Translations under genes and position numbers: made by a program
Shown here: positions 30,487 through 44,060 of the stretch, in pieces
How the letters are laid out: each line of letters opens with the position of its first letter
Position numbering within the stretch: the first letter of the stretch is position 1
Notes under the pieces: generated by a model
Seen by the model: the letters and a program-made list of their open reading frames with translations, nothing else
What the model was told of the DNA's origin: nothing
Databases searched by the model: none
Assembly: GCA_963204915.1 (NCBI GenBank)
Contig: CAUJHS010000083.1
Location: 10,130-74,129, forward strand
Source: Planctomycetota bacterium
Lineage (GTDB): Bacteria; Planctomycetota; Planctomycetia; Pirellulales; Pirellulaceae
DNA length: 64,000 bases
Reading direction: 5' to 3'

Positions 30487-30713
30487 GCCGCCGAAATCGG
30501 GCAATCGCGCGGTTAGCCCGGTCTGACCCTCAAACGATCTGGTATGTGGGTCCGCGCGAGGCGGTTCGACGAAACGAAGCAACCTCGGCCATATTTATCC
30601 AATTCGCATCGATGCGTCCGTCTCCGTAAATGAGGGAATCCGGAAGATGCTCTTTCTTCCCAACTGACACAAAGTTTTCTTCAGGCCCATTACGCCGAAA
30701 GCATGGGCGGCGA

Positions 30714-32504
30714 TTAACTCTTACTTTCGAGTTCCACCACGCCGTGCCAGTCGGGCGGCGGAGTGCGGTTGCGCTGGGCGATGTACACTACGAGAAAGTC
30801 CTTGACCTGATCTTCCGGCGGAACCCGGTTCAGGAGGGCGAGGGCGTCCGTCCAACGCCCCTCTTTGAAGGCGTCGACCGCCGCCTCGTAATCGGTCAGG
30901 TTCTGCTCGCTGAGAGCCGGCACTTCCGGCGTCGACGGCAGCAGCTCGGTAGGCTCCAAGGGGGTCGCCAAACCGTAGGGCTGAACGAGCGCTACGCGGC
31001 GGAAGTACGCTTCAGCGCGGGTCATTTGGGGGCGGACAATTTGGGCGGTTCGCTCGTCGATCAGAATCGGCGTCTTGAGAATCTTGGTCATCCCTTCTAG
31101 TCGTGAGGCCAGGTTCACGACCGGCCCGAACACCGTAACCTTCACCTGATCCGCCGTGCCGATCTTCCCGGCCACCGCTCGTCCTGTTGCGACGCCAATT
31201 CCCAAACGAAAGCCGGCCAACGAACTGGTCGAACGTTGGGCGCCCTGTTCGAACTCCGCGCGAATGCGCAGCGCCGCCCGGCAAGCGCGCAGCGCCGCCC
31301 CCTCCTGCGCGAGCGGCCAGCCCCAAAAACCCATGACCGCATCTCCGTGGAAATCTCCCACCACGCCTCCTTCGGCGAGGATCTCGCGAGTCGCCACGCC
31401 TAAAGCTCTACTTACCCGATCCAAAAGGCCAACGAGATCGTCGCCGGCCTGTTCGGACGCGCGTGAAAAACCTCGCAAATCGCAGAACAAAACCGAAACT
31501 TCACAAACTTGCGGCGCCAGGACGATGTCCGGGTCCTGAGCGGAGAGCGCCTTGAGCACCGGCGGTGAAAAGAACTGGCTCAATCCCGCCGTACGGCGTT
31601 CCAGCGACCGCAATTCGCGCAGGGAGCTGATCATTTCCGCGGCCAGCTCCGCAAATTTGACGTCTTCTCGCAGACTCGTGGGGTCCGAACCCGAGGCGAG
31701 ATCTGGTGCTCCGCCGGGAAACTGGCCCGAGACGTAAATAGCCCAAAGAAAGCCCGTTTTCTGTCGCACGGGCGTGCAGAACGCCCAGTCGGTGTTCTCA
31801 CTCACCGTGAACATTTGCGGTTCTTCCCGCGAACGCCAGACATGCGCCACGGTCTCCCCGCGTTCGATCGCTTGCAAGATCAGGCGCTCGCTCGGCTGAA
31901 AAGGTCGGCTATCTGTCCGGCGCCGATCCCATTGGAGTAGCTCAATGCGTCCGTCGGCCTGCGTCTCGGCAGGGACGGTCACCAGCGCCACCGCCTCGGC
32001 CCGCGGAACGCCGGCGAGCAGCATGTTCACGAGGTTCACAAACAACTCGGTATCGCTGCCGGCGGAGGCGATCACCTTCGGCAACCCGCTGAGAACCTCT
32101 AGACGCTGATCGGCGTCGCGAAACCGCGTGCGTCGCAGGTGCTGAACACTGAACGCGTGCTCCTCAGTGGGCGAGGGAGCCTCGGCGGAGAACTCGACCC
32201 GCTCCTCCAAGAGCACCAAGGTCGTGTCGCCAATCACGAAGTGCTGACCCGGCAGCAGTTCGAAGCTTTCGACCGGCTCGCCTTGAACGAAGATCGGATT
32301 GCGGGCCTTCGCCAGACGGCGCACGTGCAACCGCTTGCCATCCCACAGCAGTTCCGCATGTTCGCGGGAGACGCGCTCATCCCAAGGGACCGACCATTCG
32401 GGAGTGGCGCGGCCAAGAATCAGCCATTCGTCCCGAGGCAATGTCCGTCGCCAACGGTGGTCGGCGGCGGCGCCTTGAGCAATCAAGTCGGGCATAACCC
32501 CCAT
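30714..32504 (-). CDS. FHA-domain-containing class III adenylate/guanylate cyclase (N-terminal FHA, central GAF-like region, CHD cyclase domain 'VLFCDLRGFS...GDAVMGFWG', C-terminal TPR-like tail)
   Basis: Translation motifs. Confidence 0.85.
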   Translation of the reverse strand: MGVMPDLIAQGAAADHRWRRTLPRDEWLILGRATPEWSVPWDERVSREHAELLWDGKRLHVRRLAKARNPIFVQGEPVESFELLPGQHFVIGDTTLVLLEERVEFSAEAPSPTEEHAFSVQHLRRTRFRDADQRLEVLSGLPKVIASAGSDTELFVNLVNMLLAGVPRAEAVALVTVPAETQADGRIELLQWDRRRTDSRPFQPSERLILQAIERGETVAHVWRSREEPQMFTVSENTDWAFCTPVRQKTGFLWAIYVSGQFPGGAPDLASGSDPTSLREDVKFAELAAEMISSLRELRSLERRTAGLSQFFSPPVLKALSAQDPDIVLAPQVCEVSVLFCDLRGFSRASEQAGDDLVGLLDRVSRALGVATREILAEGGVVGDFHGDAVMGFWGWPLAQEGAALRACRAALRIRAEFEQGAQRSTSSLAGFRLGIGVATGRAVAGKIGTADQVKVTVFGPVVNLASRLEGMTKILKTPILIDERTAQIVRPQMTRAEAYFRRVALVQPYGLATPLEPTELLPSTPEVPALSEQNLTDYEAAVDAFKEGRWTDALALLNRVPPEDQVKDFLVVYIAQRNRTPPPDWHGVVELESKS

Positions 32505-32525
32505 CCTCTCGTTTGGCCGTCATCG

Positions 32526-34805
32526 CTAGGGAGCGTCCTTTCGTTCAATTCCGCCGTGATCCGTCGACCCTGCAGAGCTTGCGGAACTCGATGCTTCGGA
32601 GCTGCTTAGCGAATCGAATCGGCCGCGGTTACTCCAGCGTCCGCCCCAGCCCGCCGGCGCATAACTCCAAAGTACGAAACCCCACAGCGCCGTCACCACG
32701 ACGGCGAAGAGGCTAAGCTGAGCGATCATGATCCAAATCAAATCTCGTAACATCTCCTGCAGTGTCGCGCCGATCGCCTCCTCGTACGACTCTTGCACGA
32801 TCACCTCCCAACCCGTGTTGACGCCACGTGCTTTCACGGGCGCGTGATCGGCCAACCAGCGTACGGAGTAGGGTTTTCCCGCGGGATCTTTCGCCAAAGG
32901 GTCGCGATAATCCTCTTTCACGCGGCGCGTGTCGGGAAAGATGTTCTGGGTTACGAGGTAGTCGGCGTCCATGAACCCCAACGGATACTCGGGATAGCGA
33001 GCGAATAAGGGATGTTCCAAAATGAGTCCCTGATGTTTTCCTGCGCGGAGGTTGACCAACACGGGAAACTGTGTCTTGGCGCCCGGTAGGTCGGCGACCT
33101 TACCGACCTCAAACGTCATGGCGGTAACGCCGAGCAAATCGCCATCCTGGCGCACCGGAGTCGAGATCGCCACGATCCAGCGACGGGTCGCCTCACTGTG
33201 AAATACGGGCGACAACTCGGTCTTCGATAAAATGTCGTTTACACCGGCTGGTCGCCAATTCGGCTCCCGGTCGTATTCTCCCCCGTGAAAGTAGGCGCGC
33301 CAGGCGTAATTTCGGCCGATGGTGTCGCTGACGGGCCAACGCGCCAACTGGTTCCCGAGCGGATCGAAAACGAGCCAGCTCGCCTTCGGAGGCCCCGAGG
33401 GATCCTGCATGATTCGCCGCACCCGCTCTTGCAGGCGAGTCACCGGGCAATCGGGACGTTGCTGCATGTCGGCAAGATACCGCCCGCGCACTTGGTCGAG
33501 GACTTTCCTGTCTGTCTGTGGATCCGCGAGTACGGTCAGCGACGCGCTGAGTTCCGGGTCGCGAATCGCGCCGGCGAGTTCGCTTAGGAACTCCGGATCA
33601 TTGGCCAATCGCTCCACTTCCAGATAGCGGCGTTCCAAATCGTTAGTCACGGCGCTGGCCACGTATTCAGCGGCGAAACGGTCGCTTTCGAGGGCGCGCG
33701 TGACCAGCGCCTCGCGCGAGCGCGCCAGCACGGCTTGGAACGAATAATAGGCGAAGAACACCATCAGCATTAACAAGAATGCCGGTCCCGCCGCCCCCAG
33801 CACCAGCAACGGGCGCTTCGCCCTTCGCTGGGCCCGCAAATCTAAGTCGTTCAGCACCGCCTGGATGTTCGGGTAGCGGCGTTTGGGATGCCGTTCCAAA
33901 CAACGGCTCACAATGTCGCCAAGCGCTTGATCAACGCCCGCGATGCGGCGATGCTCATTCGGGGGCGGAGAATCGTGCAAGAGTTGGCGGTAGCGCGCGA
34001 GGCGATCATCCAGTCCGTCGGCTTCGCCCAAGTTCGCCAGCGCCTCCTCGGTTTGAAACGGCGGATGGCCAGTGAGCATACGGTAAAGGAGCGCGCCCAA
34101 GGCGTACACGTCCCAACGGGCGTCGGGCGCGGCGCCCAGGTCGGCTTGCTCGGGCGCCATGTAGAATAACGTTCCGAGGGAGGGCGTTTGCTCATGGGTC
34201 AACCGCGACTGCCCAAAGTCTGCCAAGCGCGGCTTACCGTCCTGATCCAACAAGATGTTGGCCGGCTTCACGTCGCAGTGAAGCACACCCTTGGCGTGGG
34301 CGTGCAGCAGGCCCTGCGCAACCTCCCGACCGCAGGCGACGATCTGCTCCACCGAGATTTTTTCTTGGGTCTTCAAGAATGCTTCGAGCGAGCCGCGCTC
34401 GACGTATTCCATCACATAGTAGGGCGGATCTGCGTCCCAGCCCACGTCCAAGAGTTGCACGACATAGCGATCGGCAGCGAGGAAAGCCAGTTTCTCAACT
34501 TCACGCGCCAGAAGCGGCCAGTCCAGGCCCGCATGCCGCGTGAAGAATTTGATCGCCACGCTTCGGCCAGTATTCCGATCAGTCCCAACCCAGACCTGCC
34601 CGAAAGTTCCGGCCCCAAGAAATCGTTGCACCTCGTAGCCGGGAGGCTCCGCTGGCGGCCCGCTCCGCCGCTTGCTCTGTTCGACCGCTCGTTGCTGCTC
34701 CTGGGTCGACTGGTAAACCGTCTCTCCGATGCCGGCTGGGCGGATTTGCTCCCCTCGTTTCGGCCGCTCCAACGGCGTTTCGGGAAGTTCGTGAGCGGAA
34801 GGCAT
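32526..34805 (-). CDS. Transmembrane receptor Ser/Thr kinase: N-terminal kinase domain ('LGAGTFGQVWVG', 'HCDVKPANILL', 'DFGQS'), TM helix, large extracytoplasmic sensor domain, second TM, Ser-rich tail. 21 nt upstream of the FHA-cyclase gene on the same strand.
   Basis: Translation; two hydrophobic segments bracketing ~330 aa. Confidence 0.85.
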   Translation of the reverse strand: MPSAHELPETPLERPKRGEQIRPAGIGETVYQSTQEQQRAVEQSKRRSGPPAEPPGYEVQRFLGAGTFGQVWVGTDRNTGRSVAIKFFTRHAGLDWPLLAREVEKLAFLAADRYVVQLLDVGWDADPPYYVMEYVERGSLEAFLKTQEKISVEQIVACGREVAQGLLHAHAKGVLHCDVKPANILLDQDGKPRLADFGQSRLTHEQTPSLGTLFYMAPEQADLGAAPDARWDVYALGALLYRMLTGHPPFQTEEALANLGEADGLDDRLARYRQLLHDSPPPNEHRRIAGVDQALGDIVSRCLERHPKRRYPNIQAVLNDLDLRAQRRAKRPLLVLGAAGPAFLLMLMVFFAYYSFQAVLARSREALVTRALESDRFAAEYVASAVTNDLERRYLEVERLANDPEFLSELAGAIRDPELSASLTVLADPQTDRKVLDQVRGRYLADMQQRPDCPVTRLQERVRRIMQDPSGPPKASWLVFDPLGNQLARWPVSDTIGRNYAWRAYFHGGEYDREPNWRPAGVNDILSKTELSPVFHSEATRRWIVAISTPVRQDGDLLGVTAMTFEVGKVADLPGAKTQFPVLVNLRAGKHQGLILEHPLFARYPEYPLGFMDADYLVTQNIFPDTRRVKEDYRDPLAKDPAGKPYSVRWLADHAPVKARGVNTGWEVIVQESYEEAIGATLQEMLRDLIWIMIAQLSLFAVVVTALWGFVLWSYAPAGWGGRWSNRGRFDSLSSSEASSSASSAGSTDHGGIERKDAP

Positions 34806-35131
34806 GATTTTTCAATCCTTCACTCCGACAGCAAGCTTCGGCTGAGCAAATGTGCACGGTGCGCGGTCGAATGAGCGCGCTGTTGTCTCCCTATCGCACA
34901 ACCCTCGGCTTACTTGTCAATCGCTAGGTTCAGGCTACGCCTATTCGGCGGCGCTGTCGGCTTTTCGCAAACCGCTATCGGTTTTTACCGCACATTTGGG
35001 GCCGGCACATGCAATTGGAACACAACAAACGTACGCAATACCATCGCAAGCCGACTGGTACGATATTTCCTCTTCAGGTTAACTCCCACACGAATGAGGG
35101 GCGCACGCAAAAGTCAAAACCGGGGGATATC

Positions 35132-36604
35132 ATGTTCGAGGTCGCTGAACTCGGCCAAACGCTCGACCGGGAAACGTTCGACGCCCGAGCTCCCGAGGTG
35201 CGGGAACGGTTGCTGGACGCGCAGTTTCGGCTCGCATCGAGCGATGTTTCCGTGATTATTCTCATCGGCGGCGTCGAGGGCGCCGGCAAGGGGGAGACGG
35301 TCAACTTGCTGCTCGAGTGGCTCGACTCGCGAGGCATAGTGACCCACGCTTTAGGTAAGCCAACGCGCGAAGAGCAAGAGCGGCCCGAATTTTACCGATT
35401 CTGGCGTCGGCTTCCACCTAAGGGACGCATCGGGATTTTTTTCGGGTCCTGGTATACGCGGCCGATTGTGGATCGTGCACTTGGACGTTGCGACGACGCC
35501 AGGTTCGATCGTGACTTGGCGCGCATCGTCCACTTCGAGGAAATGCTTTCCCAGGAAGGGGTCCTGCTGCTGAAATTCTGGCTGCATATCTCCAAAAGAC
35601 AACAACGCCGCCGGTTTAAGAAGCAAGCCGCCGATCCGGACACTGCCTGGCGGGTCACTTCGCGGGACTGGAAATTTCATGCACAGTACGATGAATTCGC
35701 TCGAACAAGCGCCCATGCGCTGCGCCGTACGAGTACGGGGTTTGCGCCTTGGGAAATTATCGAAGCCCACGACCGCTGCTTTCGTCATCTGACGGTTGCC
35801 GAGAAGGTTTGCGTTGCTCTCGAACAGCGGCTCGCGGCGGCGCCTGCTCCGCCGCCCGAGACGGTCCCATGCCCTTCCCCGGATCCTTGTAATCTCTTGC
35901 GCAATTTGGACCTCCAACGAAAGATCGCGCCCGACGACTACGAAGCCAAACTGAAGAAAAACCAAGGCAAAGTGGGGACGCTCTCGCGGCAACTCCAAAC
36001 GCATCGCCGATCCGTGGTGATCGTATTCGAGGGGCCCGATGCGGCCGGTAAGGGTGGGTGCATTCGGCGCATCACTCAATGCATCGATAGCCGCTATTAC
36101 CGCGTGATCCCGATTGCGGCGCCGACCGAGGAAGAACGAAGGCAACCGTATCTCTGGCGCTTCTGGCGTCACTTGCCAGGCTACGGAAAATATGCGATTT
36201 TCGACCGTAGCTGGTATGGCCGCGTGTTGGTCGAACGCGTGGAAGGACTGTGCGCACCCGCCGATTGGCGACGTGCGTACGCCGAGATCAATGCGTTTGA
36301 AGAACAGCTCGTGGAGTCGGGCGTGCTGTTGTTCAAATTCTGGCTGGCGATCAGTCCCGAGGAACAGCTCCGCCGCTTCAAAGAGCGCGAAGCAACCGGC
36401 TACAAACGGTATAAGCTTACTGAGGAAGACGTGAAGAATCGCGCCAAATGGCCGGACTATGAGACGGCGGCTTGCGAGGCGTTCGCTCGCACCAGCACCG
36501 AGATGGCAAACTGGACGCTGGTCGAAGCGGAAGACAAATACCACGCGAGAATCAAAGTCCTCAAAACGTTGTCGGCGCGGCTCCGCGACGCGCTGCAAGA
36601 TTGA
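35132..36604 (+). CDS. ppk2: Two-domain polyphosphate kinase 2 (PPK2; polyphosphate:AMP/nucleotide phosphotransferase type) with two Walker A loops ('GVEGAGKGE', 'FEGPDAAGKGG')
   Basis: Duplicated PPK2 domain motifs; ATG at 35132 ('MFEVAELGQ'). Confidence 0.9.
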   Translation: MFEVAELGQTLDRETFDARAPEVRERLLDAQFRLASSDVSVIILIGGVEGAGKGETVNLLLEWLDSRGIVTHALGKPTREEQERPEFYRFWRRLPPKGRIGIFFGSWYTRPIVDRALGRCDDARFDRDLARIVHFEEMLSQEGVLLLKFWLHISKRQQRRRFKKQAADPDTAWRVTSRDWKFHAQYDEFARTSAHALRRTSTGFAPWEIIEAHDRCFRHLTVAEKVCVALEQRLAAAPAPPPETVPCPSPDPCNLLRNLDLQRKIAPDDYEAKLKKNQGKVGTLSRQLQTHRRSVVIVFEGPDAAGKGGCIRRITQCIDSRYYRVIPIAAPTEEERRQPYLWRFWRHLPGYGKYAIFDRSWYGRVLVERVEGLCAPADWRRAYAEINAFEEQLVESGVLLFKFWLAISPEEQLRRFKEREATGYKRYKLTEEDVKNRAKWPDYETAACEAFARTSTEMANWTLVEAEDKYHARIKVLKTLSARLRDALQD

Positions 36605-36883
36605 CTTTGCGAGCCGGAAAAGCTTGGGGGCGAAGGGGCGGGCGTTCCACACCCTCCGCGCAATAAACGGATTGCTGCGCTCGGCCGGTCACGCGAGTGA
36701 AACTCTGCAACGCGCTCGGATCAACTGCGGGTTGACCTCAGCGGCGAGGTTCGCCAAGTTTTCGCTCGATGCCGACAAAGCTGTCACAACGCACTCGACG
36801 GTTTCTTGCTTCCCGGGGCGCGGCGAATCTACACTAGCGATGCGTCGATCATTCCGTCACCCGTGTAGCGCAGAGTTGCGGTC

Positions 36884-39800
36884 ATGTTTGGCCATCATTT
36901 TATTAGCTATTCCTCGCTGGACGGGCTGGACCTGGCGTTGCATCTGCATGACGCGTTGACCTCGGGCGAGCCGCCGTTGCCGGTGTGGTTGGATCGGCAT
37001 GAGTTGCGAGCCGGTTCGCCCCGGTGGGACGCCCAGCTCGACGATGCGCTGCGAAGCTGCGCCAGCCTGATCTTCCTGATGACGCCCGACAGCGTGGAGC
37101 ACCAGTCAGAGTGCGCCAACGAATGGTCGCGGGCGATGCGTTACAAGAAACCGATCACGCTGGTGCTAGGCGACCCCGCGGCGGCGCCGCCGTTCGCCTT
37201 TGAACGTAGGCAGTACATCGACTGTTCGCACTCGTTCCAGGCCGGCGTGTCCGCCTTGCGCAAACATCTGGAGTGGCTGAAAACTCCGCCAGGCATTTTG
37301 CAGGAACTGCAATTCCGCCGCGAAACAGCGCTGCGCGACTTGCGCCGAGCTCAGCGCGACCCGCTGATCGATCCAACGCGCGTCGCACGCATCGAGGCCG
37401 AGCTGAACGAACTGGATCAGCAGATCCACGAGCAAGAAGAGATTGTGGCCGATCCTGCCGCCGCAGCGCGACGGGTCGAGAACAGCATTGCCTTGGGGTT
37501 GGAGCGCGAGCGGCAACAAGCCGGCTCGGCCATGGCGCCGCGTACGAAGTTCATCAATCCGCCGCCGGGGCTGGCGCCGGAGTATTTTCAGGACCGCTAC
37601 GTCGAAACGAAGTTGATTGCCGAGTTCCTGCAGAACGACTCCCAACGGTTGATGACCCTGGTGGGACGCGGCGGCGTGGGCAAGACGGCTCTCTCGTGCC
37701 GGCTGCTCAAATCGCTTGAGTCCGGCGTACTGCCGGACGACCTGGGAACTTTGTCGATTGACGGCATTGTGTACCTCAGCGGCGTTGGCTCACACAAGAT
37801 CCAAACCGCGAACCTGTTTGGCGACTTGTCTCGCCTGCTGCCACACGACGCCGCAGCCAAAATGGAGGCGTTGTACAAAAACGCCCATGTGGGCATTCGC
37901 GCCAAGCTGGAAGCCCTGCTTGATGTGCTGCCGCCGGGACGAGTTGTGGTCCTGCTGGATAACTTCGAAGATGTGGTCGATCCACAAAACCGCAAATTGT
38001 GTGACCCTGATCTCTTCGAAGCATTGCAAGCCTTGTTGCAGTTGCCGCATCATGCGGTCAAGCTCGTGTTGACAACGCGCGTGGCGGCGCTTGACCTGGC
38101 TCAAGTGCAGCCGGGGCGGCAAGCCCGCATCGACCTGGATGAAGGACTGCCGACGCCGTTTGCGGAGAATATTCTGCGCGCTATGGACGCGGACGGCAAA
38201 GTGGGCCTACGCGACGCTCCCGCCGCCTTACTGCGAGAGGCGCAGACGCGCACGCGCGGCTATCCTCGCGCGCTTGAAGCGCTGTTCGCGATCCTTTCGG
38301 CCGACCGGGACACCAGCTTGGGTGAGGTGCTGGCCCAGACCGAAGCTCTGCCCGAAGGCGTGGTCGAAGCGCTCGTGGGCGACGCATTCAGTCGCTTGGA
38401 CGCCGTGGCGCAGCAGGTGATGCAGGCGCTGGCGATTTACGGCCGTCCGGTCACGTCGAACGCCGTCGACTATTTGTTGCAGCCGTACCTTCCGAGCATT
38501 GACAGCGCCCGCGTGCTGGGCCGGTTGGTCAACATGTTACTCGTCCGTAAGGATGCGGGGCGGTATCACCTGCACCCGGTGGATGGGGCTTACGCTTTGA
38601 GCCGCTTGCCCGATGGAGAACCGGCGGATCACGTGGTGCAGCCGTTGCCCTATTCTCGCTATGCCTTGCTGCACCGCGGAGCGGAATACTTCCGCCAGGC
38701 GCGCAAGCCCGCCGACCAGTGGAAAACGCTAGATGACCTCTTGCCGCAACTGGCCGAGTTCGACCTGCGGTGCGCCAGCCAGGACTTTGAAACCGCGGCC
38801 CGGGTGTTGATCGAGATCGACTTCCAGTACTTGCGGCGGTGGGGGCATTATGCGTTGTGCGCCCAATTGCACGAACGCTTGCGCGATCAGTTGACGGATC
38901 CAGCCCTGGAAACCACCTGCGTGGGCAACTTGGGCATCGCCTATCGCGACTTGGGCGAGGCCGAGCGAGCGATCGCCTGTTTTGAACGAGCGCTGACGCT
39001 GGCTCGGCAACGTCGGGCGTTGTCGGCCCAGGCGGTGTGGTTGTGCAACATTGGAGCGACCTGCGATGCGTTGGGGCAAACGCAACGCTCGCTGCAATGC
39101 CACCAAGAAGCGCTCGTGATCGATCAAAAACTGGGTGACGAAGACGGCGTGGCGGTCGATCTGCATAATCTTTCGGGCCGCTTCGCCGAACTAGGACAAA
39201 CGGAACAAGCCCTCGCCGCCTGCCGCCGGTCGATCGAAATTGCCCGCCGCATGTATGCGCATAGCGCCAAAGGGCAACAGCCGCGCAAGGCCGATAACCA
39301 GCGTTACGCCGTCGCTCTGCGGCTAGGTACACTCGCGCGGCTGCTTGACGACGCTGGCGATTTTCCGCAAGCCATCGCGGCGGCCAAGGAGGGACTCCAT
39401 CTGGCGGAAGATTTCCACAGCCCGGAGATCAACACGCGCAATCGTTACTACTTGGGTCTGGCCCAGTTGCTGTTGGGCGAGTTCGACGCCGCCCGCGACA
39501 CGGTCGAAGCGGCGGCCCGGTACGACTTCCCGCGGTATAACCATCGGTTATTGGTGCTCTCCGGCTTGGTGCGGTGGCGCATGAGGCGTCAAGACGAGGC
39601 CGCCGCCTTGTTCGACGAAGCCGCCGCCGTCGCACGAAAGTTGACCGACCATTGTCCTAACTATTACGAAGCGCAAGAATCGCTGGCATTGGCTCAGTGC
39701 GGTCGATCGGCCTGTGGCCATGGCGACCACTGGAGTGAGGCCGAGCGGCTGTTTCGCCGCCTGCGGCAAATCAACGCCTTTCCGGGCAAAGTGAAGCGCA

Positions 39801-39889
39801 CACTCCAATTGCTCGACCAACTCGAGTCCCCGGAAACCGCCGCCGTGCTCGCCAAAGTTCGCCCTATCGCTCAAGGGCAAGCCGAGTAA
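36884..39889 (+). CDS. TIR-NB-ARC-TPR STAND NTPase (bacterial NLR-like): N-terminal TIR ('HHFISYSSLDG...SECANEW'), coiled coil, P-loop NB-ARC ('LVGRGGVGKTAL...VVVLLDNFEDV'), C-terminal TPR array
   Basis: Translation motifs; architecture typical of anti-phage TIR-STAND proteins. Confidence 0.85.
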   Translation: MFGHHFISYSSLDGLDLALHLHDALTSGEPPLPVWLDRHELRAGSPRWDAQLDDALRSCASLIFLMTPDSVEHQSECANEWSRAMRYKKPITLVLGDPAAAPPFAFERRQYIDCSHSFQAGVSALRKHLEWLKTPPGILQELQFRRETALRDLRRAQRDPLIDPTRVARIEAELNELDQQIHEQEEIVADPAAAARRVENSIALGLERERQQAGSAMAPRTKFINPPPGLAPEYFQDRYVETKLIAEFLQNDSQRLMTLVGRGGVGKTALSCRLLKSLESGVLPDDLGTLSIDGIVYLSGVGSHKIQTANLFGDLSRLLPHDAAAKMEALYKNAHVGIRAKLEALLDVLPPGRVVVLLDNFEDVVDPQNRKLCDPDLFEALQALLQLPHHAVKLVLTTRVAALDLAQVQPGRQARIDLDEGLPTPFAENILRAMDADGKVGLRDAPAALLREAQTRTRGYPRALEALFAILSADRDTSLGEVLAQTEALPEGVVEALVGDAFSRLDAVAQQVMQALAIYGRPVTSNAVDYLLQPYLPSIDSARVLGRLVNMLLVRKDAGRYHLHPVDGAYALSRLPDGEPADHVVQPLPYSRYALLHRGAEYFRQARKPADQWKTLDDLLPQLAEFDLRCASQDFETAARVLIEIDFQYLRRWGHYALCAQLHERLRDQLTDPALETTCVGNLGIAYRDLGEAERAIACFERALTLARQRRALSAQAVWLCNIGATCDALGQTQRSLQCHQEALVIDQKLGDEDGVAVDLHNLSGRFAELGQTEQALAACRRSIEIARRMYAHSAKGQQPRKADNQRYAVALRLGTLARLLDDAGDFPQAIAAAKEGLHLAEDFHSPEINTRNRYYLGLAQLLLGEFDAARDTVEAAARYDFPRYNHRLLVLSGLVRWRMRRQDEAAALFDEAAAVARKLTDHCPNYYEAQESLALAQCGRSACGHGDHWSEAERLFRRLRQINAFPGKVKRTLQLLDQLESPETAAVLAKVRPIAQGQAE

Positions 39890-40167
39890 CGCACCATGCG
39901 CCCGGCAAGGTCCCCCGCCACACCTTCCCTCGTGTGCTGCGGCGGAAGAGTTTCGCTGCGCTGTATGAAACGCCCCCACGCGAGAAGAGGATCATGGGGG
40001 CCGGCCCTTCGACGCTTTTGCAGGCAAACTCACGACGCCTGCATGAACTTTTCCCGCGAGCGGCGCGTGTGAGTACGCGCCGCTTGGTCGTGCAAATCCT
40101 TTTGTCCCCGTCCGACGCGATCCTCGTCGGGAAAGTTAGGCCGTCGAACGCGCATCGTAACCGTCCG

Positions 40168-40755
40168 CTATTGCGTCAGATCGGCGTTTCGCATGATCGT
40201 TTGGCCGGTGCGAACGTCCCGGAGGTAGATTTCGACAAACCCATCCGAATACCGTATGGCATGAGCCAGTTGTTGCGGCGAGCTGACCGCAACGCCGTCA
40301 ATCGAGTAAATGATGTCGCCGGGCTCAATCCCTATGCGAAACGCGGCGCTGTAAGGCGTAACATGGGTTACATAGACCCCGCGGCCGTCCCACGTCGCGG
40401 ACGTGGTTACTCCGAGAAACTTCGCTACCGGCGGCTGGACCGACGACGGCGGGTACCATACTTGCACCGACGGATACGTCGGTTGCACCGGCGGGTACAC
40501 CGGCTGAGCCGGCGGATACCAAGACGGGATCGACGGCACATAGGGGTCGCTAGACGCAGTCGGATCCGTGTAGCTTCCACCTGGTCGAAACGTATCGGAC
40601 GATGCCGTCGGATCCGACTTGTGCTGGCGTACACCTGGGGCGTGAACTTGGCCAAAGGCGCCGGCGGATTCTCGCCGCCAATTCTGTGCTTGAACCTGTT
40701 CCGTAGAAAGGGCAATGCCTCCGACTAACAACAGTAAACCGATCGTTCTCATCAC
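40168..40755 (-). CDS. Secreted PDZ-domain protein with Pro/Tyr-rich repeat region
   Basis: Signal peptide 'MMRTIGLLLLVGGIALSTEQVQA', C-terminal PDZ 'GVYVTHVTPYSAAFRIGIEPGDIIYSIDGVAV'. Confidence 0.7.
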   Translation of the reverse strand: MMRTIGLLLLVGGIALSTEQVQAQNWRRESAGAFGQVHAPGVRQHKSDPTASSDTFRPGGSYTDPTASSDPYVPSIPSWYPPAQPVYPPVQPTYPSVQVWYPPSSVQPPVAKFLGVTTSATWDGRGVYVTHVTPYSAAFRIGIEPGDIIYSIDGVAVSSPQQLAHAIRYSDGFVEIYLRDVRTGQTIMRNADLTQ

Positions 40756-41265
40756 AAAACACCTCGTGAACGGTGACCAATCCGATCTGCCTTGCGAGAC
40801 ATTCGCATGGCGTTCTCTTTAGATCATGACGAGTCAACGTTCAGGACAGACATCGAAAGTGCTTCATGCAATTTGCTGCGGCGACGATCTGCTCTAGATG
40901 TTTGTCCCGGCAGTAGATTCTTTCTGCGCGATGGATACTTTTCAGGCTGCCGAGCGTTTAAGTGACTACCAACGTTGATTGCGTCAGTTTTTGCAAATCA
41001 AGAAATTTTTGCGAACCAACGCAGGACAACAGCGTCTATATCTACAACACGCGACGAACAGGGTTGCGGCCTAAGAAATTTGAATACCAGTAAGTCACCG
41101 GATACGGAATCATGGCTTCATTACGGCTCAGTTTTACCCGGTCAATACTGACCGAACGATTTCGTGAATATGAGGATGGGACCGTGTCGCGAGACGCGAA
41201 TGCGCTCCCCTTGCATCCACGTCGGTGGTAACACTCGGCCGAACTAACGAAGCAACGTTGGCGAA

Positions 41266-41300
41266 CCCGGTGTTATCCCAAGAGTGACACCGGGTTTTTT
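41266..41300 (+). terminator. Hairpin CCCGGTGT/ACACCGGG (13-nt loop) followed by TTTTTT, ~30 nt upstream of the first tRNA of the array
   Basis: Seen in sequence. Confidence 0.45.
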
Positions 41301-41330
41301 CGTGTCAATTTGCAACGTTTGACCTACCGA

Positions 41331-41402
41331 TGGACTGGTAGCTGAGACGGTATAGCGCTGGCCTGAAGAGCCGGAGAGGAGGGTTCGAGCACCTCCCAGT
41401 CC
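41331..41402 (+). tRNA. tRNA-Phe (anticodon GAA)
   Basis: Acceptor GGACTGG/CCAGTCC, D-arm GCTG-AGACGGTA-TAGC, anticodon loop CTGAAGA. Confidence 0.65.
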
Positions 41403-41472
41403 ACTGGTTACGCATTTGGCAAAAGCACATGGATAACAACTGCGGTCGAGATACGCGCCTATACAACCAACG

Positions 41473-41547
41473 TCGGCTCGTTCGACTTCTGGTGAGGTCG
41501 CTGGTCTTTCAAGCCAGCTAGGTTGGGTTCGAATCCCACACGAGTCG
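41473..41547 (+). tRNA. tRNA-Glu (anticodon TTC), copy 1
   Basis: Acceptor CGGCTCG/CGAGTCG, anticodon arm CTGGT-CTTTCAA-GCCAG; T-arm has one mismatch. Confidence 0.55.
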
Positions 41548-41560
41548 CTGACATAACGAA

Positions 41561-41628
41561 TGGGCTTGCCGACGGGTCGGCGCTTTGACTTGCACTCAAG
41601 GCTTCAGGGTTCAACTCCCTGCATGTCC
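41561..41628 (+). tRNA. tRNA-Ala-like (anticodon TGC, G3:U70 wobble in the acceptor) with a compressed D-arm
   Basis: Acceptor GGGCTTG/CATGTCC, anticodon arm TTTGA-CTTGCAC-TCAAG, T-arm CAGGG-TTCAACT-CCCTG. Confidence 0.45.
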
Positions 41629-41702
41629 ACTGAACAATGAACAGCACTGGAGACGACGATGCAATCACTTAGTTGCTTGAAACGCATACCCATAGCCATT
41701 CA

Positions 41703-41774
41703 TGAGGCTGTGGTGTAGCGGCGGCACGGCGGACTTTTAATCCGTAAAGCGTGGGTTCGAATCCCACCGGCCTC
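41703..41774 (+). tRNA. tRNA-Lys (anticodon TTT)
   Basis: Acceptor GAGGCTG/CGGCCTC, D GTGT-AGCGGCG-GCAC, anticodon GCGGA-CTTTTAA-TCCGT, T GTGGG-TTCGAAT-CCCAC. Confidence 0.8.
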
Positions 41775-41780
41775 ACTTGT

Positions 41781-41853
41781 TCGGCGTGAAGCTCGCTGGT
41801 CCGAGCAGCGTCCTTATAAGACGAAGTTCGAAGGTTCGATTCCTTCCACGCCG
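41781..41853 (+). tRNA. tRNA with anticodon TAT (would decode AUA, Ile). Unusual in bacteria.
   Basis: Acceptor CGGCGTG/CACGCCG, D GCTC-GCTGGTCC-GAGC, anticodon loop CTTATAA, T GAAGG-TTCGATT-CCTTC. Confidence 0.55.
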
Positions 41854-41879
41854 ACTTGAAGGAGAAACGCCGAGGGGAT

Positions 41880-41957
41880 TGTGCCAGACAAGGTAAAGCA
41901 CCAAACGCTTCATCTGGTCGAAGGAGGTTCAATGCCCACCGATCCCGCTACTTGAAT
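41880..41957 (+). tRNA. tRNA-like element with an aberrant T-arm (GGAGG-TTCAATG-CCCAC); isotype unresolved
   Basis: T-loop-like motif and partial acceptor complementarity only. Confidence 0.3.
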
Positions 41958-42035
41958 AAGCACGGATGGTCGAATGGCATGACCCCGCTTTCGTAAAGCG
42001 GCTGCGTGCGTTCGATTCCGGGCGCCGACGTACTC
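41955..42035 (+). tRNA. tRNA-Thr-like (anticodon arm CCGCT-TTCGTAA-AGCGG, anticodon CGT) with a non-pairing T-stem
   Basis: Anticodon hairpin clear; acceptor and T-arm not canonical. Confidence 0.3.
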
Positions 42036-42085
42036 GTTGGTCGCGGTGCTCTTTGATCTTTGACAATCTGGTTAAGCCAACAAAA

Positions 42086-42157
42086 GGCGTCCATGGTGTA
42101 GTGGGAACCCATCTGCTTGCCATGCAGAAAACGCGAGTTCGATTCTCGCTGGACGCT
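42086..42157 (+). tRNA. tRNA-Gly (anticodon GCC)
   Basis: Acceptor GCGTCCA/TGGACGC, anticodon TCTGC-TTGCCAT-GCAGA, T GCGAG-TTCGATT-CTCGC. Confidence 0.8.
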
Positions 42158-42166
42158 CTTCATGTA

Positions 42167-42241
42167 TCAGGGTGTGGGAAAGCCTGGCTACTCCGCGTGC
42201 TTCGGGAGCACGAGATCGTCGGTTCAAATCCGACCATCCTG
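42167..42241 (+). tRNA. tRNA-Pro (anticodon CGG)
   Basis: Acceptor CAGGGTG/CATCCTG, anticodon CGTGC-TTCGGGA-GCACG, T GTCGG-TTCAAAT-CCGAC. Confidence 0.7.
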
Positions 42242-42254
42242 ACTAATTTTTTCT

Positions 42255-42330
42255 TGTGGGTCCTTTTTTGGTAAGGGAAGGCTCCGGTTCATCGCCTAGA
42301 CGTAAGTTCGATTCCTGTCTCTGGTCCTGA
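42255..42330 (+). tRNA. tRNA-like element with an over-long or aberrant T-region (…GACGTAAGTTCGATTCCTGTC…); isotype unresolved
   Basis: TTCGATTCC motif without a canonical stem. Confidence 0.25.
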
Positions 42331-42408
42331 GGTCGTCCTGAATTGGTTCAGAAACTTGCCGATGACCCCAGTTTATGGCGGACTGATTCCGATCAGTCGC
42401 CCTATGAA

Positions 42409-42492
42409 TGGAAGACATCTGGCTGGATGAGGAAACCGCCTTGAAAGCGGCTGGCGCTGATAACGCTTCAGGGTTCGAGTCCCTGGTCTTCC
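42409..42492 (+). tRNA. tRNA-Ser (anticodon TGA), type II with a long variable arm
   Basis: Acceptor GGAAGAC/GTCTTCC, anticodon loop CTTGAAA, variable hairpin, T CAGGG-TTCGAGT-CCCTG. Confidence 0.7.
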
Positions 42493-42503
42493 GCCTTGTT
42501 TGA

Positions 42504-42581
42504 AACAATCCTGTCGTCTGGCGGCGAAGGCGCCTGGTTTACACCCAGTCGATCGACGGTTCGAGTCCCTCCAGGACTACT
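42504..42581 (+). tRNA. tRNA-Val-like (anticodon loop TTTACAC, anticodon TAC) with a mismatched T-stem
   Basis: Acceptor AATCCTG/CAGGACT (6/7 pairs), anticodon CTGG-TTTACAC-CCAG. Confidence 0.35.
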
Positions 42582-42598
42582 TTGTGTTGAAGTTTAAA

Positions 42599-42673
42599 CA
42601 CCCAGATACGCCAACCTGGCAGAGCGGCTCGGCTCAGACCCGAGGGTTTGCAGGTTCAAGTCCTGCTCTGGGT
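42599..42673 (+). tRNA. Type-I (short variable arm) tRNA with anticodon CAG. Would read CUG (Leu), but it lacks the long variable arm of bacterial tRNA-Leu.
   Basis: Acceptor ACCCAGA/TCTGGGT, anticodon CTCGG-CTCAGAC-CCGAG, T GCAGG-TTCAAGT-CCTGC. Confidence 0.5.
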
Positions 42674-42686
42674 ACTGTTGTCGGTA

Positions 42687-42760
42687 TGGCTCGGTAGGCA
42701 ATCGGCAGACCACGCTGTTTCAAACTCAGTGATGCTGTGGGTTCAAATCCCACCTGAGCC
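42687..42760 (+). tRNA. tRNA-like; the anticodon arm is ambiguous (loop TTTCAAA or TTCAAAC; anticodon TCA or CAA)
   Basis: Acceptor GGCTCGG/CTGAGCC, T GTGGG-TTCAAAT-CCCAC; weak anticodon stem. Confidence 0.4.
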
Positions 42761-42774
42761 ATTGAAGAAAACTA

Positions 42775-42849
42775 TGTCCTCGTGGAGCAGCCTGGAGTGC
42801 TCGCTACCCTGTCACGGTAGAGATCGTGGGTTCAAATCCCATCGGGGAC
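42775..42849 (+). tRNA. tRNA-Asp (anticodon GTC)
   Basis: Acceptor GTCCTCG/CGGGGAC, D GAGC-AGCCTGGA-GTGCTC, anticodon CTACC-CTGTCAC-GGTAG, T GTGGG-TTCAAAT-CCCAT. Confidence 0.8.
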
Positions 42850-42954
42850 GCTGTGTCGAGAGGAACGACGACAGAAAAGTAACCATCCATGAGCGCTGGG
42901 CACGCATTCTCCCGTCCCGTGTTTGTTTGGCTGGTTGCGTTGCGCGGTGCTTTA

Positions 42955-43037
42955 TGCGTCGGTTGGGCATTGGCAAGCCTCAGTGGCTGTAATCCACCCG
43001 CCTTTCTGGCTTTGCAGGTTCAACTCCTGCCCGGCGC
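42955..43037 (+). tRNA. tRNA-Tyr (anticodon GTA), type II
   Basis: Acceptor GCGTCGG/CCGGCGC, anticodon GTGG-CTGTAAT-CCAC, variable hairpin GCC-TTTCT-GGC, T GCAGG-TTCAACT-CCTGC. Confidence 0.65.
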
Positions 43038-43054
43038 ACTTGAAGTGGTTTGTT

Positions 43055-43127
43055 TGGCGCGGTGCGATGTTGGTTTTGCAACGAGGCTTTCAATCTCGTC
43101 TACGCGGGTTCAATTCCCGTCCGCGTC
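43055..43127 (+). tRNA. tRNA-Glu (anticodon TTC), copy 2
   Basis: Acceptor GGCGCGG/CCGCGTC, anticodon CGAGG-CTTTCAA-TCTCG, T GCGGG-TTCAATT-CCCGT. Confidence 0.65.
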
Positions 43128-43140
43128 ACTTGGTATAACA

Positions 43141-43208
43141 ATGCAGGTGGGCAGGGTCCCAACCAGCCCTCATAAGGCCGGTCTCTCGGTTCGATTCCGT
43201 GACCTGCA
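43141..43208 (+). tRNA. tRNA-Met-like (anticodon CAT). A lysidine-modified Ile or initiator identity cannot be excluded.
   Basis: Acceptor TGCAGGT/ACCTGCA, anticodon loop CTCATAA; T-stem has one mismatch. Confidence 0.5.
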
Positions 43209-43267
43209 ATTTGGCAATCGCGCAGCACCGAACAAAGTAATGCGAACCAAGTAACGTCGTAATTGTA

Positions 43268-43342
43268 TGGCCGGGTACGCAAACAGGTAAAGCGAGCAGT
43301 TCGAGACGCTGCGATTTTGTGGGTTCGATTCCCACCCTGGTC
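43268..43342 (+). tRNA. tRNA-like with anticodon arm GCAGT-TCGAGAC-GCTGC (anticodon GAG, position 33 not U); isotype uncertain
   Basis: Acceptor GGCCGGG/CCTGGTC, T GTGGG-TTCGATT-CCCAC. Confidence 0.4.
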
Positions 43343-43429
43343 ACTTCCATCGTGGTGCAAGCGTTAGTATGCCCGATTCGTGGCGCACTGTGACCGTTGA
43401 ACATCGCTCCATCGCGATGAAACGTCTCT

Positions 43430-43500
43430 GGGTCTGTTGGTGTTGTGGCGGCACGCGTTCGTGGTAAGGACGAAGATCGGGTTCGATTCCCGGACGGACC
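43430..43500 (+). tRNA. tRNA-Thr (anticodon GGT)
   Basis: Acceptor GGTCTGT/ACGGACC, D GTGT-TGTGGCG-GCAC, anticodon CGTTC-GTGGTAA-GGACG, T TCGGG-TTCGATT-CCCGG. Confidence 0.7.
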
Positions 43501-43621
43501 TTTTGCCTGATTGATGGGCTGCTCGTTCAACGGCAGGACGCCTGCTTTGTACGCCAGGAGATCGGGGATCATTTCCTCGGCGGTCCACTCATCGCTAACT
43601 CGAAATTGGCAAAATTCGCAG

Positions 43622-43698
43622 TTTGGCTCGATGGTGAAACGGAAATCATTCCACCCTTCGAGCGCGGCGTTCTAGGTTGGAATCCCGGGCGAGCCAAT
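43622..43698 (+). tRNA. tRNA-like element: perfect 7-bp acceptor TGGCTCG/CGAGCCA and a T-arm with a mutated loop (TTGGAAT), but no foldable D/anticodon arms
   Basis: Seen in sequence. Confidence 0.3.
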
Positions 43699-43803
43699 CA
43701 AACTCGTTGAAGGAATGTGACGGGAAGCAAAGATAAACGTGGATATGCATACGGTGGTTCGATTTCTCGGCAGGGGGACTTAGCTGAGAGTTCGACAACG
43801 ACA

Positions 43804-43876
43804 GGTCCTTGGAGTGTGCCGGACAAGCACGCGACTGTGCGAAGGTCGAGGATCAGGTTCGATTCCTGACGAGGAC
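43804..43876 (+). tRNA. tRNA with anticodon GCG (would read CGC/CGU, Arg); non-standard for bacteria, which normally use ACG
   Basis: Acceptor GTCCTTG/CGAGGAC, D GTGT-GCCGGACAA-GCAC, anticodon CGACT-GTGCGAA-GGTCG, T TCAGG-TTCGATT-CCTGA. Confidence 0.5.
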
Positions 43877-44060
43877 GCTTTTCCCCTAATGGCGCCGCGA
43901 CGAATGAGATCGTTGGCCGTCTTTCTACCCGGAAGTATTGTGGAGACGTCGAAATTTTTGCCGTGTTATCACTTGGTTTGCTACCGCGTTGGGGAGAAAG
44001 ATTTTGGCAAATCGGAGGGGGCGATTATAATCGTGGCTCCTTCGGCAGGAGAGCACAATC

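What the first reader, a model, noticed from the sequence alone, without database searches (positions are those of the whole stretch)
36884..39889. TIR-NB-ARC-TPR STAND NTPase (bacterial NLR-like) close to the second TIR-containing protein, PPK2 and a nucleotide cyclase
The protein has an N-terminal TIR domain with the conserved 'FISYSS' beta-A and a Glu-containing 'SECANEW' segment. A coiled coil, a P-loop NB-ARC module and about 10 TPR repeats follow. This is the architecture of anti-phage Avs/bNLR-type sensors that trigger TIR NADase activity on ligand recognition. It lies 9 kb from the kinase-TIR-sheath gene, and two unrelated TIR proteins within 16 kb suggest a defence island. The intervening genes are a two-domain PPK2 (nucleotide/polyphosphate metabolism) and an FHA-adenylate/guanylate cyclase. 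Both could feed into, or respond to, nucleotide-derived immune signals.
Basis: partly seen in the sequence, partly recalled or inferred. Interest (0 to 1): 0.6.

Follow-up and report, generated by a model that had tools for sequence, protein, structure and literature searches.

The report
Stand-alone TIR–STAND–TPR NLR-like protein

Summary
ORF 36884-39889 (+) encodes 1001 aa: a TIR domain with an invariant Glu80 at the catalytic position, a three-helix linker, a divergent STAND P-loop NTPase (nucleotide-binding, helical and winged-helix parts) and about 10 TPR-like helix pairs. It is under strong purifying selection (dN/dS 0.10 against a 94%-identical relative).

It belongs to a discrete, unnamed family of about 1,000 clusters at 50% identity. 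The family is scattered over many bacterial phyla and two archaeal MAGs. No Pfam NB-ARC, NCBIfam or PADLOC Avs model reaches threshold.

Across 88 loci no neighbouring gene is conserved. Homologues mostly lie among housekeeping genes, and in Pyrinomonadaceae in a fixed slot beside uvrA. No member was found in the viral, phage or plasmid collections. The proposed defence island with PPK2, the cyclase and the second TIR protein is therefore not supported. PPK2 is an ordinary polyphosphate:AMP phosphotransferase.

An immune or cell-death role is still the best reading. Some relatives add a caspase or PNP domain in front of the TIR. Their TPR sensor consists of near-identical 40-aa units whose number varies (1-19) and whose differences cluster at a few positions, as in fungal NLRs. 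The window copy is a divergent form with degenerate units.

Verdict: a new member of a known kind, of moderate interest.

The parts
36884..39889 (+). Complete gene for the TIR-linker-STAND-TPR protein (1001 aa)
   Evidence: ORF listing and translation. The N-terminus matches the family consensus MxxHHFISYSS. dN/dS is 0.096 against L001.
36884..37276 (+). TIR domain (aa 1-131), with beta-A FISYSS (36899-36916) and the SECANEW segment (37106-37126) that holds Glu80
   Evidence: Pfam TIR_2 at 61 bits. The family profile hits the TIR structures of TLR2, TLR10, AbTIR, TIR-APAZ and TIR-SAVED. E80 is invariant and aligns with SARM1 E642. The model shows a beta-alpha fold.
37286..37519 (+). Three long helices (aa 135-212) that link the TIR to the NTPase, a coiled-coil-like linker
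   Evidence: AlphaFold2 helices H135-158, H164-189 and H191-212. Family conservation here is 0.59-0.73.
37547..37597 (+). Family-specific invariant motif KFINPPPG...YFQDR (aa 222-238) just before the NTPase
   Evidence: Invariant columns in A1 and A2. The motif has low model confidence and its role is unknown.
37580..38143 (+). STAND nucleotide-binding domain (aa 233-420): Walker A 37664-37687, Walker B 37952-37972, TTR 38072-38080
38159..38632 (+). Helical domain and winged-helix domain (aa 426-583), with GYPRALE (38258-38278) and the MHD-like LHPVD (38570-38584)
38657..39874 (+). Alpha-solenoid of 20 helices (aa 592-997), the TPR sensor
   Evidence: Pfam TPR_12, TPR_1 and TPR_MalT. PDB hits to LGN/GPSM2, KLC and PH0952 TPRs. 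Model pLDDT above 90.
38921..39280 (+). Three degenerate 40-aa TPR units (aa 680-799). These correspond to the copy-number-variable unit array of the family.
   Evidence: The unit HMM recognises only aa 720-755 in the window protein. There is no DNA tandem repeat here, against 120 bp x 5 at 92% identity in L091.

Best explanation
This is a single-gene, NLR-like switch that most likely serves regulated cell death or immunity.

Proposed mechanism:
1. At rest the protein is a nucleotide-bound, autoinhibited monomer.
2. A ligand, probably a protein or peptide and of unknown identity, binds the concave face of the C-terminal TPR solenoid.
3. Binding releases the winged-helix/NTPase lock and allows nucleotide-dependent oligomerisation of the STAND module.
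4. Oligomerisation brings the N-terminal TIR domains together through the three-helix linker.
5. Composite NADase sites built around Glu80 form and cleave NAD+, which stops growth or kills the cell.

Shown here: the domain anatomy, conservation of the catalytic and ATPase residues, purifying selection, the stand-alone genetic organisation, effector accretion in relatives, and variation in repeat number.

Inferred only: ligand sensing, oligomerisation, NADase activity and the biological trigger (phage or otherwise).
For: - TIR_2 scores above threshold. E80 is invariant and sits at the catalytic position.
- The STAND fold (nucleotide-binding, helical and winged-helix domains) has intact Walker A and B, TTR, GxP and MHD-like motifs.
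- The full-length model resembles the STAND-TPR protein PH0952, the plant TIR-NLR RPP1 and Apaf-1.
- dN/dS is 0.06-0.17 in every domain.
- No partner gene is conserved in 88 loci, so effector and sensor must lie in the one chain.
- Relatives place Peptidase_C14 or PNP_UDP_1 in front of the TIR, or carry two TIRs. Such effector accretion is a stated criterion for conflict systems (PMC7159879).
- Sensor units of 40 aa are up to 95% identical within a protein. Their number ranges from 1 to 19. Two units differ between two otherwise near-identical strains. Variation concentrates at unit positions 6, 9, 10, 39 and 40. Fungal and bacterial NLRs show the same pattern (PMC4986451; 10.1101/2020.01.06.895854).
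- The phyletic distribution is patchy, and the nearest relatives are often in other phyla.
- By the effector-domain criterion of PMC13581612, a clade in which at least 50% of members carry such an effector domain counts as defence-associated. I could not check that TIR is on that paper's effector list (its Supplementary Table 3 is not held), so this point assumes it is.
Against: - No PADLOC Avs or bNACHT model and no NCBIfam model matches.
- Homologues lie mostly among housekeeping genes.
- In 141 neighbour ORFs from 16 loci, only about 10 hit PADLOC models, and most of those hits are generic.
- In Pyrinomonadaceae the gene holds a fixed slot beside uvrA across at least 7 species, unlike typical mobile defence islands.
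- It is absent from IMG/VR, the phage records and the plasmid records.
- Identity of 50-65% over the full length across phyla, sensor included, is unusual for an arms-race receptor.
- The window copy has degenerate repeats.
- There is no experimental datum for any member.
Confidence: 0.55

Rival explanations
1. It is a non-immune signalling or regulatory STAND protein, comparable to MalT, AfsR or NPHP3. The TPR senses an endogenous metabolite or protein. The TIR acts as a scaffold or makes a physiological nucleotide signal, and the gene belongs to the stable core genome.
For: - The gene keeps a fixed syntenic slot (yqeY | gene | uvrA) in Pyrinomonadaceae and a second slot (aroC-def | gene) in Blastocatellia.
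- Its neighbours are housekeeping genes.
- Sequence conservation is very high across phyla, including the sensor, and purifying selection is strong.
- No members were found on viral contigs, phages or plasmids.
- The best structural matches, PH0952 and MalT, are non-immune STANDs.
- A BTAD regulator is among the nearest annotated relatives of the NTPase.
Against: - There is no DNA-binding or other regulatory output domain. The only output is a TIR with an invariant catalytic Glu.
- Relatives add caspase or PNP effector domains.
- Repeat number varies and hypervariable positions exist.
- The distribution is patchy and consistent with horizontal transfer.
- The Pyrinomonadaceae slot also gains and loses an MBL-fold gene and a TIR-DUF4440 gene, so it behaves like a small variable islet.
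Confidence: 0.2
2. The TIR generates a signal rather than depleting NAD+, as in Thoeris. After activation it makes a cADPR-type or His-ADPR-type messenger. That messenger switches on an effector encoded elsewhere in the genome, or fused in cis in the caspase and PNP variants.
For: - Caspase-TIR and PNP-TIR fusions occur in the family.
- TIR-to-caspase signalling is known from type IV Thoeris (cited in PMC13581612).
- Weak TIR similarity to the Thoeris type III ThcB4 and SAVED-TIR models.
Against: - No effector gene is conserved next to the family in 88 loci.
- TIRs in Avs proteins and in stand-alone proteins are generally treated as NAD+-depleting effectors (10.64898/2025.12.03.692087).
- Most members, including the window protein, have no second effector domain.
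Confidence: 0.15
3. One reading: the gene is one component of a multi-gene defence island that also includes the kinase-TIR-sheath protein, PPK2 and the FHA-cyclase, with these genes exchanging nucleotide signals.
For: - The genes lie within 16 kb of each other, and the block is collinear in one 94%-identical relative.
- The cyclase has a weak PycC-like hit and the kinases hit PD-T4-6 and mad6 models.
Against: - None of these genes is a neighbour of any other family member.
- PPK2 is a standard polyphosphate:AMP phosphotransferase, and its 80% orthologue has different neighbours.
- Ser/Thr kinases are simply abundant in this genome; the window holds at least three, at 24077, 32526 and 61338.
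- The gene orientations are mixed.
- The TIR of the kinase protein does not match this family's TIR profile.
Confidence: 0.05

Closest known systems
Avs (AVAST) antiviral STAND proteins with TIR effectors, and bacterial NLR-related proteins in general (Gao 2022; Kibby 2023; PMC13581612)
   Same: A single polypeptide with an N-terminal effector (here TIR), a central STAND NTPase and a C-terminal TPR-like sensor. No partner gene is needed. The expected logic is ligand-induced oligomerisation that activates the effector.
   Different: There is no HMM match to Avs1-5 or bNACHT models. The NTPase forms its own small clade, with 2,837 hits in 1.84 billion representatives. The sensor is made of canonical TPR_12-type 40-aa units. 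A conserved three-helix linker is present. The family is not visibly associated with defence islands. No trigger is known.
AP-ATPase / NB-ARC proteins with N-terminal TIR and C-terminal TPRs from multicellular bacteria (Leipe 2004; Kaur 2020, PMC7159879)
   Same: The same three-part architecture. The motifs TTR, GxP and an MHD-like His are typical of the clade. The nearest annotated NTPase relatives are 'NB-ARC domain-containing proteins'. The family occurs in Actinomycetes, Chloroflexi and Cyanobacteria.
   Different: The Pfam NB-ARC score is below threshold. The gene is not linked to the FxSxx peptide-processing or vWA-MoxR systems described there. The family is also common in Acidobacteriota, Bacteroidota and Desulfobacterota, and occurs in two archaeal MAGs.
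Fungal NB-ARC/NACHT-TPR NLRs with internally conserved repeats (Dyrka 2014, PMC4986451) and bacterial counterparts (10.1101/2020.01.06.895854)
   Same: TPR units of about 40-42 aa are 80-95% identical within one protein. Repeat number is polymorphic. Variability is confined to a few positions. PNP_UDP and TIR occur as N-terminal domains.
   Different: This is a prokaryotic family with usually one, occasionally two, copies per genome, not a large paralogous repertoire. The window copy itself has lost repeat identity.
Plant TIR-NLRs (RPP1, ROQ1)
   Same: TIR followed by a STAND-type NTPase and then a repeat sensor. RPP1 is among the Foldseek hits to the full-length model. The catalytic Glu is conserved.
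   Different: The sensor is TPR rather than LRR. There is no C-JID domain, and a long helical linker is present. Homology is likely only at the domain level.
E. coli TIR-II system (TIR + TPR, about 30% of members with an ATPase; PMC11350192)
   Same: It combines TIR, TPR and sometimes an ATPase, and has been shown experimentally to defend against phage.
   Different: Sequence relatedness could not be tested because no sequence was available here. No family member was found in the plasmid or phage collections.

Membership tests
Catalytic (NADase-type) TIR domain | TIR fold or profile match above the curated threshold | tested here: met
   Pfam TIR_2 at 61.1 bits against a cut-off of 28. The family profile hits solved TIR structures. 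The model shows a beta-alpha fold.
Catalytic (NADase-type) TIR domain | Conserved Glu in the helix after beta-C (SARM1 E642 / AbTir E208 position) | tested here: met
   E80 is invariant in 36 of 36 sequences.
Catalytic (NADase-type) TIR domain | NAD+ cleavage activity | not testable with these tools
   This needs an enzyme assay, for example etheno-NAD or LC-MS.
STAND NTPase, NB-ARC / AP-ATPase clade | Walker A and Walker B P-loop motifs | tested here: met
   GRGGVGKT at aa 261-268 and LLDNFED at aa 357-363, conserved in the family.
STAND NTPase, NB-ARC / AP-ATPase clade | Three-part fold of nucleotide-binding, helical and winged-helix domains | tested here: met
STAND NTPase, NB-ARC / AP-ATPase clade | Pfam NB-ARC (PF00931) gathering score | tested here: not met
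   21.5 bits against a cut-off of 23.5. Homologues variously carry weak NACHT, nSTAND1 or NB-ARC hits.
STAND NTPase, NB-ARC / AP-ATPase clade | Clade-level placement by phylogeny or nearest relatives | tested here: inconclusive
Avs1-5 / bNACHT as modelled in PADLOC-DB v2 | HMM match to a family model | tested here: not met
   Only domain-level TPR and TIR hits were found.
Defence-associated STAND clade (criteria of PMC13581612) | At least 50% of members carry a defence effector domain | tested here: inconclusive
   TIR_2 is listed in nearly all of the 120 best homologues, and in most representatives the NTPase starts at about aa 212, after the TIR and linker. That paper's effector list (Supplementary Table 3) is not held, so whether TIR is on it could not be checked.
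Defence-associated STAND clade (criteria of PMC13581612) | Enrichment of known defence systems within 5 kb (null 0.0153) | tested here: inconclusive
   Ten annotated contexts show no recognisable defence system. PADLOC HMMs on 141 neighbour ORFs from 16 loci gave about 10 hits, mostly generic; mad3 and mad8 hits may mark one or two real systems. System-level DefenseFinder could not be run.
Thoeris | TIR gene paired with a conserved adjacent effector gene | tested here: not met
   No neighbour is conserved in 88 loci.
Pycsar (for the neighbouring FHA-cyclase) | Cyclase with an adjacent effector that binds cyclic nucleotides | tested here: not met
   The cyclase hits PycC only at domain level. 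Its neighbours are a Ser/Thr kinase and a split carboxylesterase, and neither has a cNMP-binding domain.
NLRs with internally conserved, copy-number-variable TPR units | Units at least 80-85% identical within a protein, with repeat-number polymorphism | tested here: met
   This holds for the family. L091 has 120 bp x 5 at 92% nucleotide identity. P0052 and P0005 differ by two units. Unit number ranges from 1 to 19. It does not hold for the window copy, which has no DNA repeat and only one recognisable unit.

The most novel reading that the evidence does not exclude
The family could be a widespread, single-gene prokaryotic NLR that diversifies its receptor by shuffling near-identical 40-aa TPR units, with hypervariable unit positions 6, 9, 10, 39 and 40. 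Despite that, it is kept as a stable chromosomal resident, for example beside uvrA throughout Pyrinomonadaceae. That would make it a vertically maintained 'core' innate-immune or cell-death receptor that senses a conserved trigger, and a close prokaryotic counterpart of fungal NB-ARC-TPR NLRs. The window protein would then be a branch whose sensor has become fixed.
Probability: 0.2. Interest if true: 0.6.

Novelty: new member of a known kind. Interest (0 to 1): 0.35.

Why it matters
If the mechanism holds, this is one more bacterial NLR that couples a TPR sensor to a TIR NADase. It belongs to a family that no defence-annotation resource currently names. The family is common in soil phyla that are rarely tested experimentally: Acidobacteriota, Chloroflexota, Actinomycetes and Planctomycetes-like genomes.

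At family level, repeat-number-variable sensor units combined with stable chromosomal residence would make a tractable system for asking how bacterial NLR sensors diversify. Members exist in cultured strains, including Paractinoplanes deccanensis NBRC 13994.

For this window specifically, the main result is a correction. The gene is a stand-alone module, and the surrounding PPK2, cyclase, kinase and second TIR genes should not be read as one defence island.

Tried and rejected
- A sequence search of the whole protein and of the NTPase-only profile against PDB returned only TPR hits, or nothing for the NTPase. The fold had to be assigned from a predicted structure.
- NCBIfam has no model above cut-off.
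- The promoter and terminator scan around the gene was uninformative, with 0 promoter-like sites and terminator-like sites at or below the shuffle expectation.
- The supplementary tables of PMC13581612 are not held. I could not check whether the family is one of its 589 STAND clades or whether TIR is on its effector list.
Gene content (DUF7133, DUF6797, 3-keto-disaccharide hydrolase, BlaR-type pairs, many Ser/Thr kinases) only suggests Planctomycetota or Verrucomicrobiota.
- The 264-aa ORF at 39934-40728 (+) was considered as a downstream partner and rejected. The real gene there is a PDZ protein on the minus strand.
- A conserved operon partner was rejected.
- Phage, prophage or plasmid carriage was rejected for the collections searched.
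- The automatic 'other phylum' count is inflated by inconsistent taxon labels. I counted the clear cross-phylum cases by eye, about 20-25 of 64.
Full report
**Observation**

The ORF at 36884-39889 on the + strand is real and intact, starts with ATG and encodes 1001 aa. Its N-terminus, MFGHHFISYSS, matches the consensus start of its family, so the start codon is right.

- **TIR.** Pfam gives TIR_2 over aa 6-124 at 61 bits against a gathering score of 28.
- **NTPase.** Several P-loop and STAND models hit aa 235-403 only weakly: AAA_22 at 25.9 bits (cut-off 27), NB-ARC at 21.5 (cut-off 23.5), plus AAA_16 and ATPase_2.
- **TPR.** Strong TPR_12, TPR_1 and TPR_8 hits lie at aa 678-920.
- **Motif positions.** 'FISYSS' is aa 6-11 and 'SECANEW' is aa 75-81.

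A full-length AlphaFold2 model built on 36 homologues has mean pLDDT 81.5. It shows:
- a beta-alpha TIR domain (aa 1-131);
- three long helices (aa 135-212);
- a nucleotide-binding domain (aa 233-420);
- a helical domain and a winged helix (aa 426-583, lower confidence);

**TIR domain**

A profile of the family's TIR region finds the solved TIR structures of TLR2, TLR10, AbTIR, TIR-APAZ, TIR-SAVED and Cat1. Glu80 is invariant in all 36 aligned sequences, and C77 and W81 are nearly or fully so. Glu80 aligns with the Glu of the TLR10 WCHYE motif. In a profile comparison it also aligns with the Glu of SARM1 WVHKE, the catalytic E642.

**NTPase module**

The following motifs are invariant in the family, and by my own knowledge of these families they are typical of the AP-ATPase/NB-ARC clade:
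- Walker A GRGGVGKT
- Walker B LLDNFED
- TTR
- GYPRALE
- LHPVD

The nearest annotated relatives of the module share 23-32% identity. They are cyanobacterial 'NB-ARC domain-containing proteins', a BTAD regulator and Streptomyces trypsin-STAND proteins. The Pfam NB-ARC threshold is still not reached, and I built no tree. I call the module NB-ARC-like rather than a proven NB-ARC member.

Searching 1.84 billion representative proteins with the NTPase profile gave only 1,058 hits at E <= 1e-30 and 2,837 at E <= 1e-3. The family is a small, sharply bounded clade.

**The family**

More than 1,300 homologues were found, mostly 980-1,140 aa long and sharing the same architecture.

- **Position of the window protein.** It is an outlier, about 50% identical to all others. 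The others share 60-80% identity with each other. It departs from them at 58 otherwise conserved positions, none of them in a catalytic motif.
- **Closest relative.** One metagenomic contig carries a 98%-identical copy and is collinear with window 26711-42581 at about 94% nucleotide identity.
- **Selection.** dN/dS between the two copies is 0.096, and 0.06-0.17 in each domain. The gene is functional.
- **Taxonomic spread.** In one-genome-per-species data the family occurs in Acidobacteriota, Chloroflexota, Actinomycetes, Desulfobacterota, Bacteroidota, Nitrospirota, Cyanobacteria, Planctomycetes, KSB1 and two archaeal MAGs.
- **Inheritance.** Some clades follow taxonomy: Pyrinomonadaceae at 66-79% and Actinomycetes at 59-80%. 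Many nearest relatives lie in other phyla, for example Geobacter and Pedobacter at 82%. This indicates vertical descent mixed with horizontal transfer.

**Genomic context**

I clustered crude ORF calls from 88 loci. No neighbour is shared beyond lineage-specific synteny. Ten contexts with Pfam annotation are mostly housekeeping genes: proS, SHMT, nusA-infB, uvrA, uvrB, aroC, def and tricorn protease.

In Pyrinomonadaceae the gene sits in a fixed slot, rimP-nusA...yqeY | gene | uvrA, in at least seven species. Zero to two variable genes, an MBL-fold protein and a TIR-DUF4440 protein, lie between it and uvrA. A second slot, aroC-def | gene, is seen in Blastocatellia.

PADLOC HMMs run on 141 neighbour ORFs from 16 loci gave about ten hits, mostly generic. 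No member was found in IMG/VR viral contigs, phage records or plasmid records.

The gene is therefore a stand-alone module and is not visibly tied to defence islands.

**The proposed island in the window**

- **PPK2.** It is a polyphosphate:AMP phosphotransferase, TIGR03708 at 671 bits against a cut-off of 548. Thousands of ordinary homologues exist. Its 80%-identical orthologue has entirely different neighbours.
- **Kinases and cyclase.** Their PADLOC hits to PD-T4-6, mad6 and PycC cover only the generic catalytic domains. No cNMP-binding effector is adjacent. The window holds at least three Ser/Thr kinases.
- **The second TIR.** The TIR of the kinase-sheath protein does not match this family's TIR profile.
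- **Conclusion.** The island hypothesis rests on proximity alone, in one lineage.

**Why an immune or cell-death role remains the best reading**

The only output domain is a TIR with a conserved catalytic residue.

Relatives place a caspase domain (Peptidase_C14) or a PNP_UDP_1 domain in front of the TIR, or carry two TIRs. Such effector accretion is a stated hallmark of conflict systems (PMC7159879).

The sensor is built from 40-aa TPR units with these properties:
- In L091 the units form a 120-bp tandem array of five copies at 92% nucleotide identity.
- Two otherwise near-identical strains differ by two units.
- Unit number ranges from 1 to 19 among 120 homologues, and protein lengths step by about 40 aa.
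- Differences between units concentrate at unit positions 6, 9, 10, 39 and 40.

This is the pattern described for fungal NLR TPRs (PMC4986451) and already noted for bacterial NLRs (10.1101/2020.01.06.895854).

The window copy has three degenerate units and no DNA repeat.

Under the effector-domain criterion of PMC13581612 the clade would count as defence-associated, provided TIR is on that paper's effector list, which I could not check. The genomic-context criterion could not be properly tested here.

**Mechanism and novelty**

I propose ligand binding to the TPR solenoid, nucleotide-dependent oligomerisation of the STAND module, and clustering of the TIRs into active NADase sites that deplete NAD+. 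I give this a confidence of 0.55. Every step after the anatomy is inferred by analogy with Avs proteins, plant TIR-NLRs and SARM1.

Rival readings and my confidence in each:
- a non-immune regulatory STAND (0.2);
- a signal-generating TIR with an unlinked or fused effector (0.15);

The architecture has been known since the STAND survey of 2004, and TIR-bearing Avs proteins are established. The finding is therefore a new, unnamed member of a known kind and of moderate interest.

Noticed in passing
window 41332-43878 (+); L001 14472-16591: An array of 19 tRNA genes lies 1.4 kb downstream of the gene. It includes an unusual tRNA-Ile(UAU), and only 13 of the 19 reach the Rfam gathering score. The 94%-identical relative also has an array of 18 tRNAs. 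The first nine are in the same order and the rest differ. Synteny breaks at window 42581, inside the array. GC content falls from about 0.62 to about 0.55 near 40 kb.
   Followed up: partly
window 24077-27943 (-): A 1288-aa fusion of a Ser/Thr kinase, a weak TIR_2 domain (24 bits, below threshold) and T6SS sheath VipA/VipB-like domains. It is conserved in the close relative L001. Its TIR is unrelated to the TIR of the studied family.
   Followed up: partly
window 28903-29895 and 29908-30486 (+): A carboxylesterase is split into two ORFs and is probably a pseudogene. It is also split in L001, but at a different point (115 + 361 aa).
   Followed up: no
window 39934-40728 (+) versus 40168-40755 (-): The 264-aa plus-strand ORF just after the gene has no Pfam hit and is probably spurious. 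The minus-strand ORF encodes a PDZ protein, and that is the gene called in the relative.
   Followed up: yes
window 35009-36604 (+): Homologues of the PPK2/PAP protein are about 490 aa and cover 92% of this ORF. The true start is probably about 40 codons downstream of the listed ATG.
   Followed up: no
L080 8001-10936 (Acaryochloris marina MBIC11017 chromosome): The family member in this complete genome is frameshifted after about aa 102 of the TIR domain. It is a likely pseudogene or a sequencing error.
   Followed up: partly
L004, L006, L007, L010 (Pyrinomonadaceae), between the family gene and uvrA: A variable mini-islet. An MBL-fold gene, which hits the LmuA, Avs1a and RTasMBL effector models at domain level, and a TIR_2-DUF4440 gene are present in some species and absent in others.
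   Followed up: partly
L091 8443-8504: A 15-bp tandem repeat (x4.1, encoding VGAHG) lies inside the helical domain of a family member. It differs by one copy from the near-identical P0052.
   Followed up: no
L025 (Geobacter MAG) and L030 (Pedobacter MAG); L024 ('Enterobacteriaceae' MAG): Family proteins from a Geobacter MAG and a Pedobacter MAG are 82% identical. This means either very recent cross-phylum transfer or contamination from binning. The Enterobacteriaceae label of L024 also looks doubtful.
   Followed up: no
window 47199-57720: Very large proteins with DUF7133, DUF6797, Laminin_G_3, cupredoxin and cytochrome c domains. A 3-keto-disaccharide hydrolase is encoded at 60593-61285. This gene content is typical of Planctomycetota or Verrucomicrobiota. 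The source organism could not be named.
   Followed up: partly
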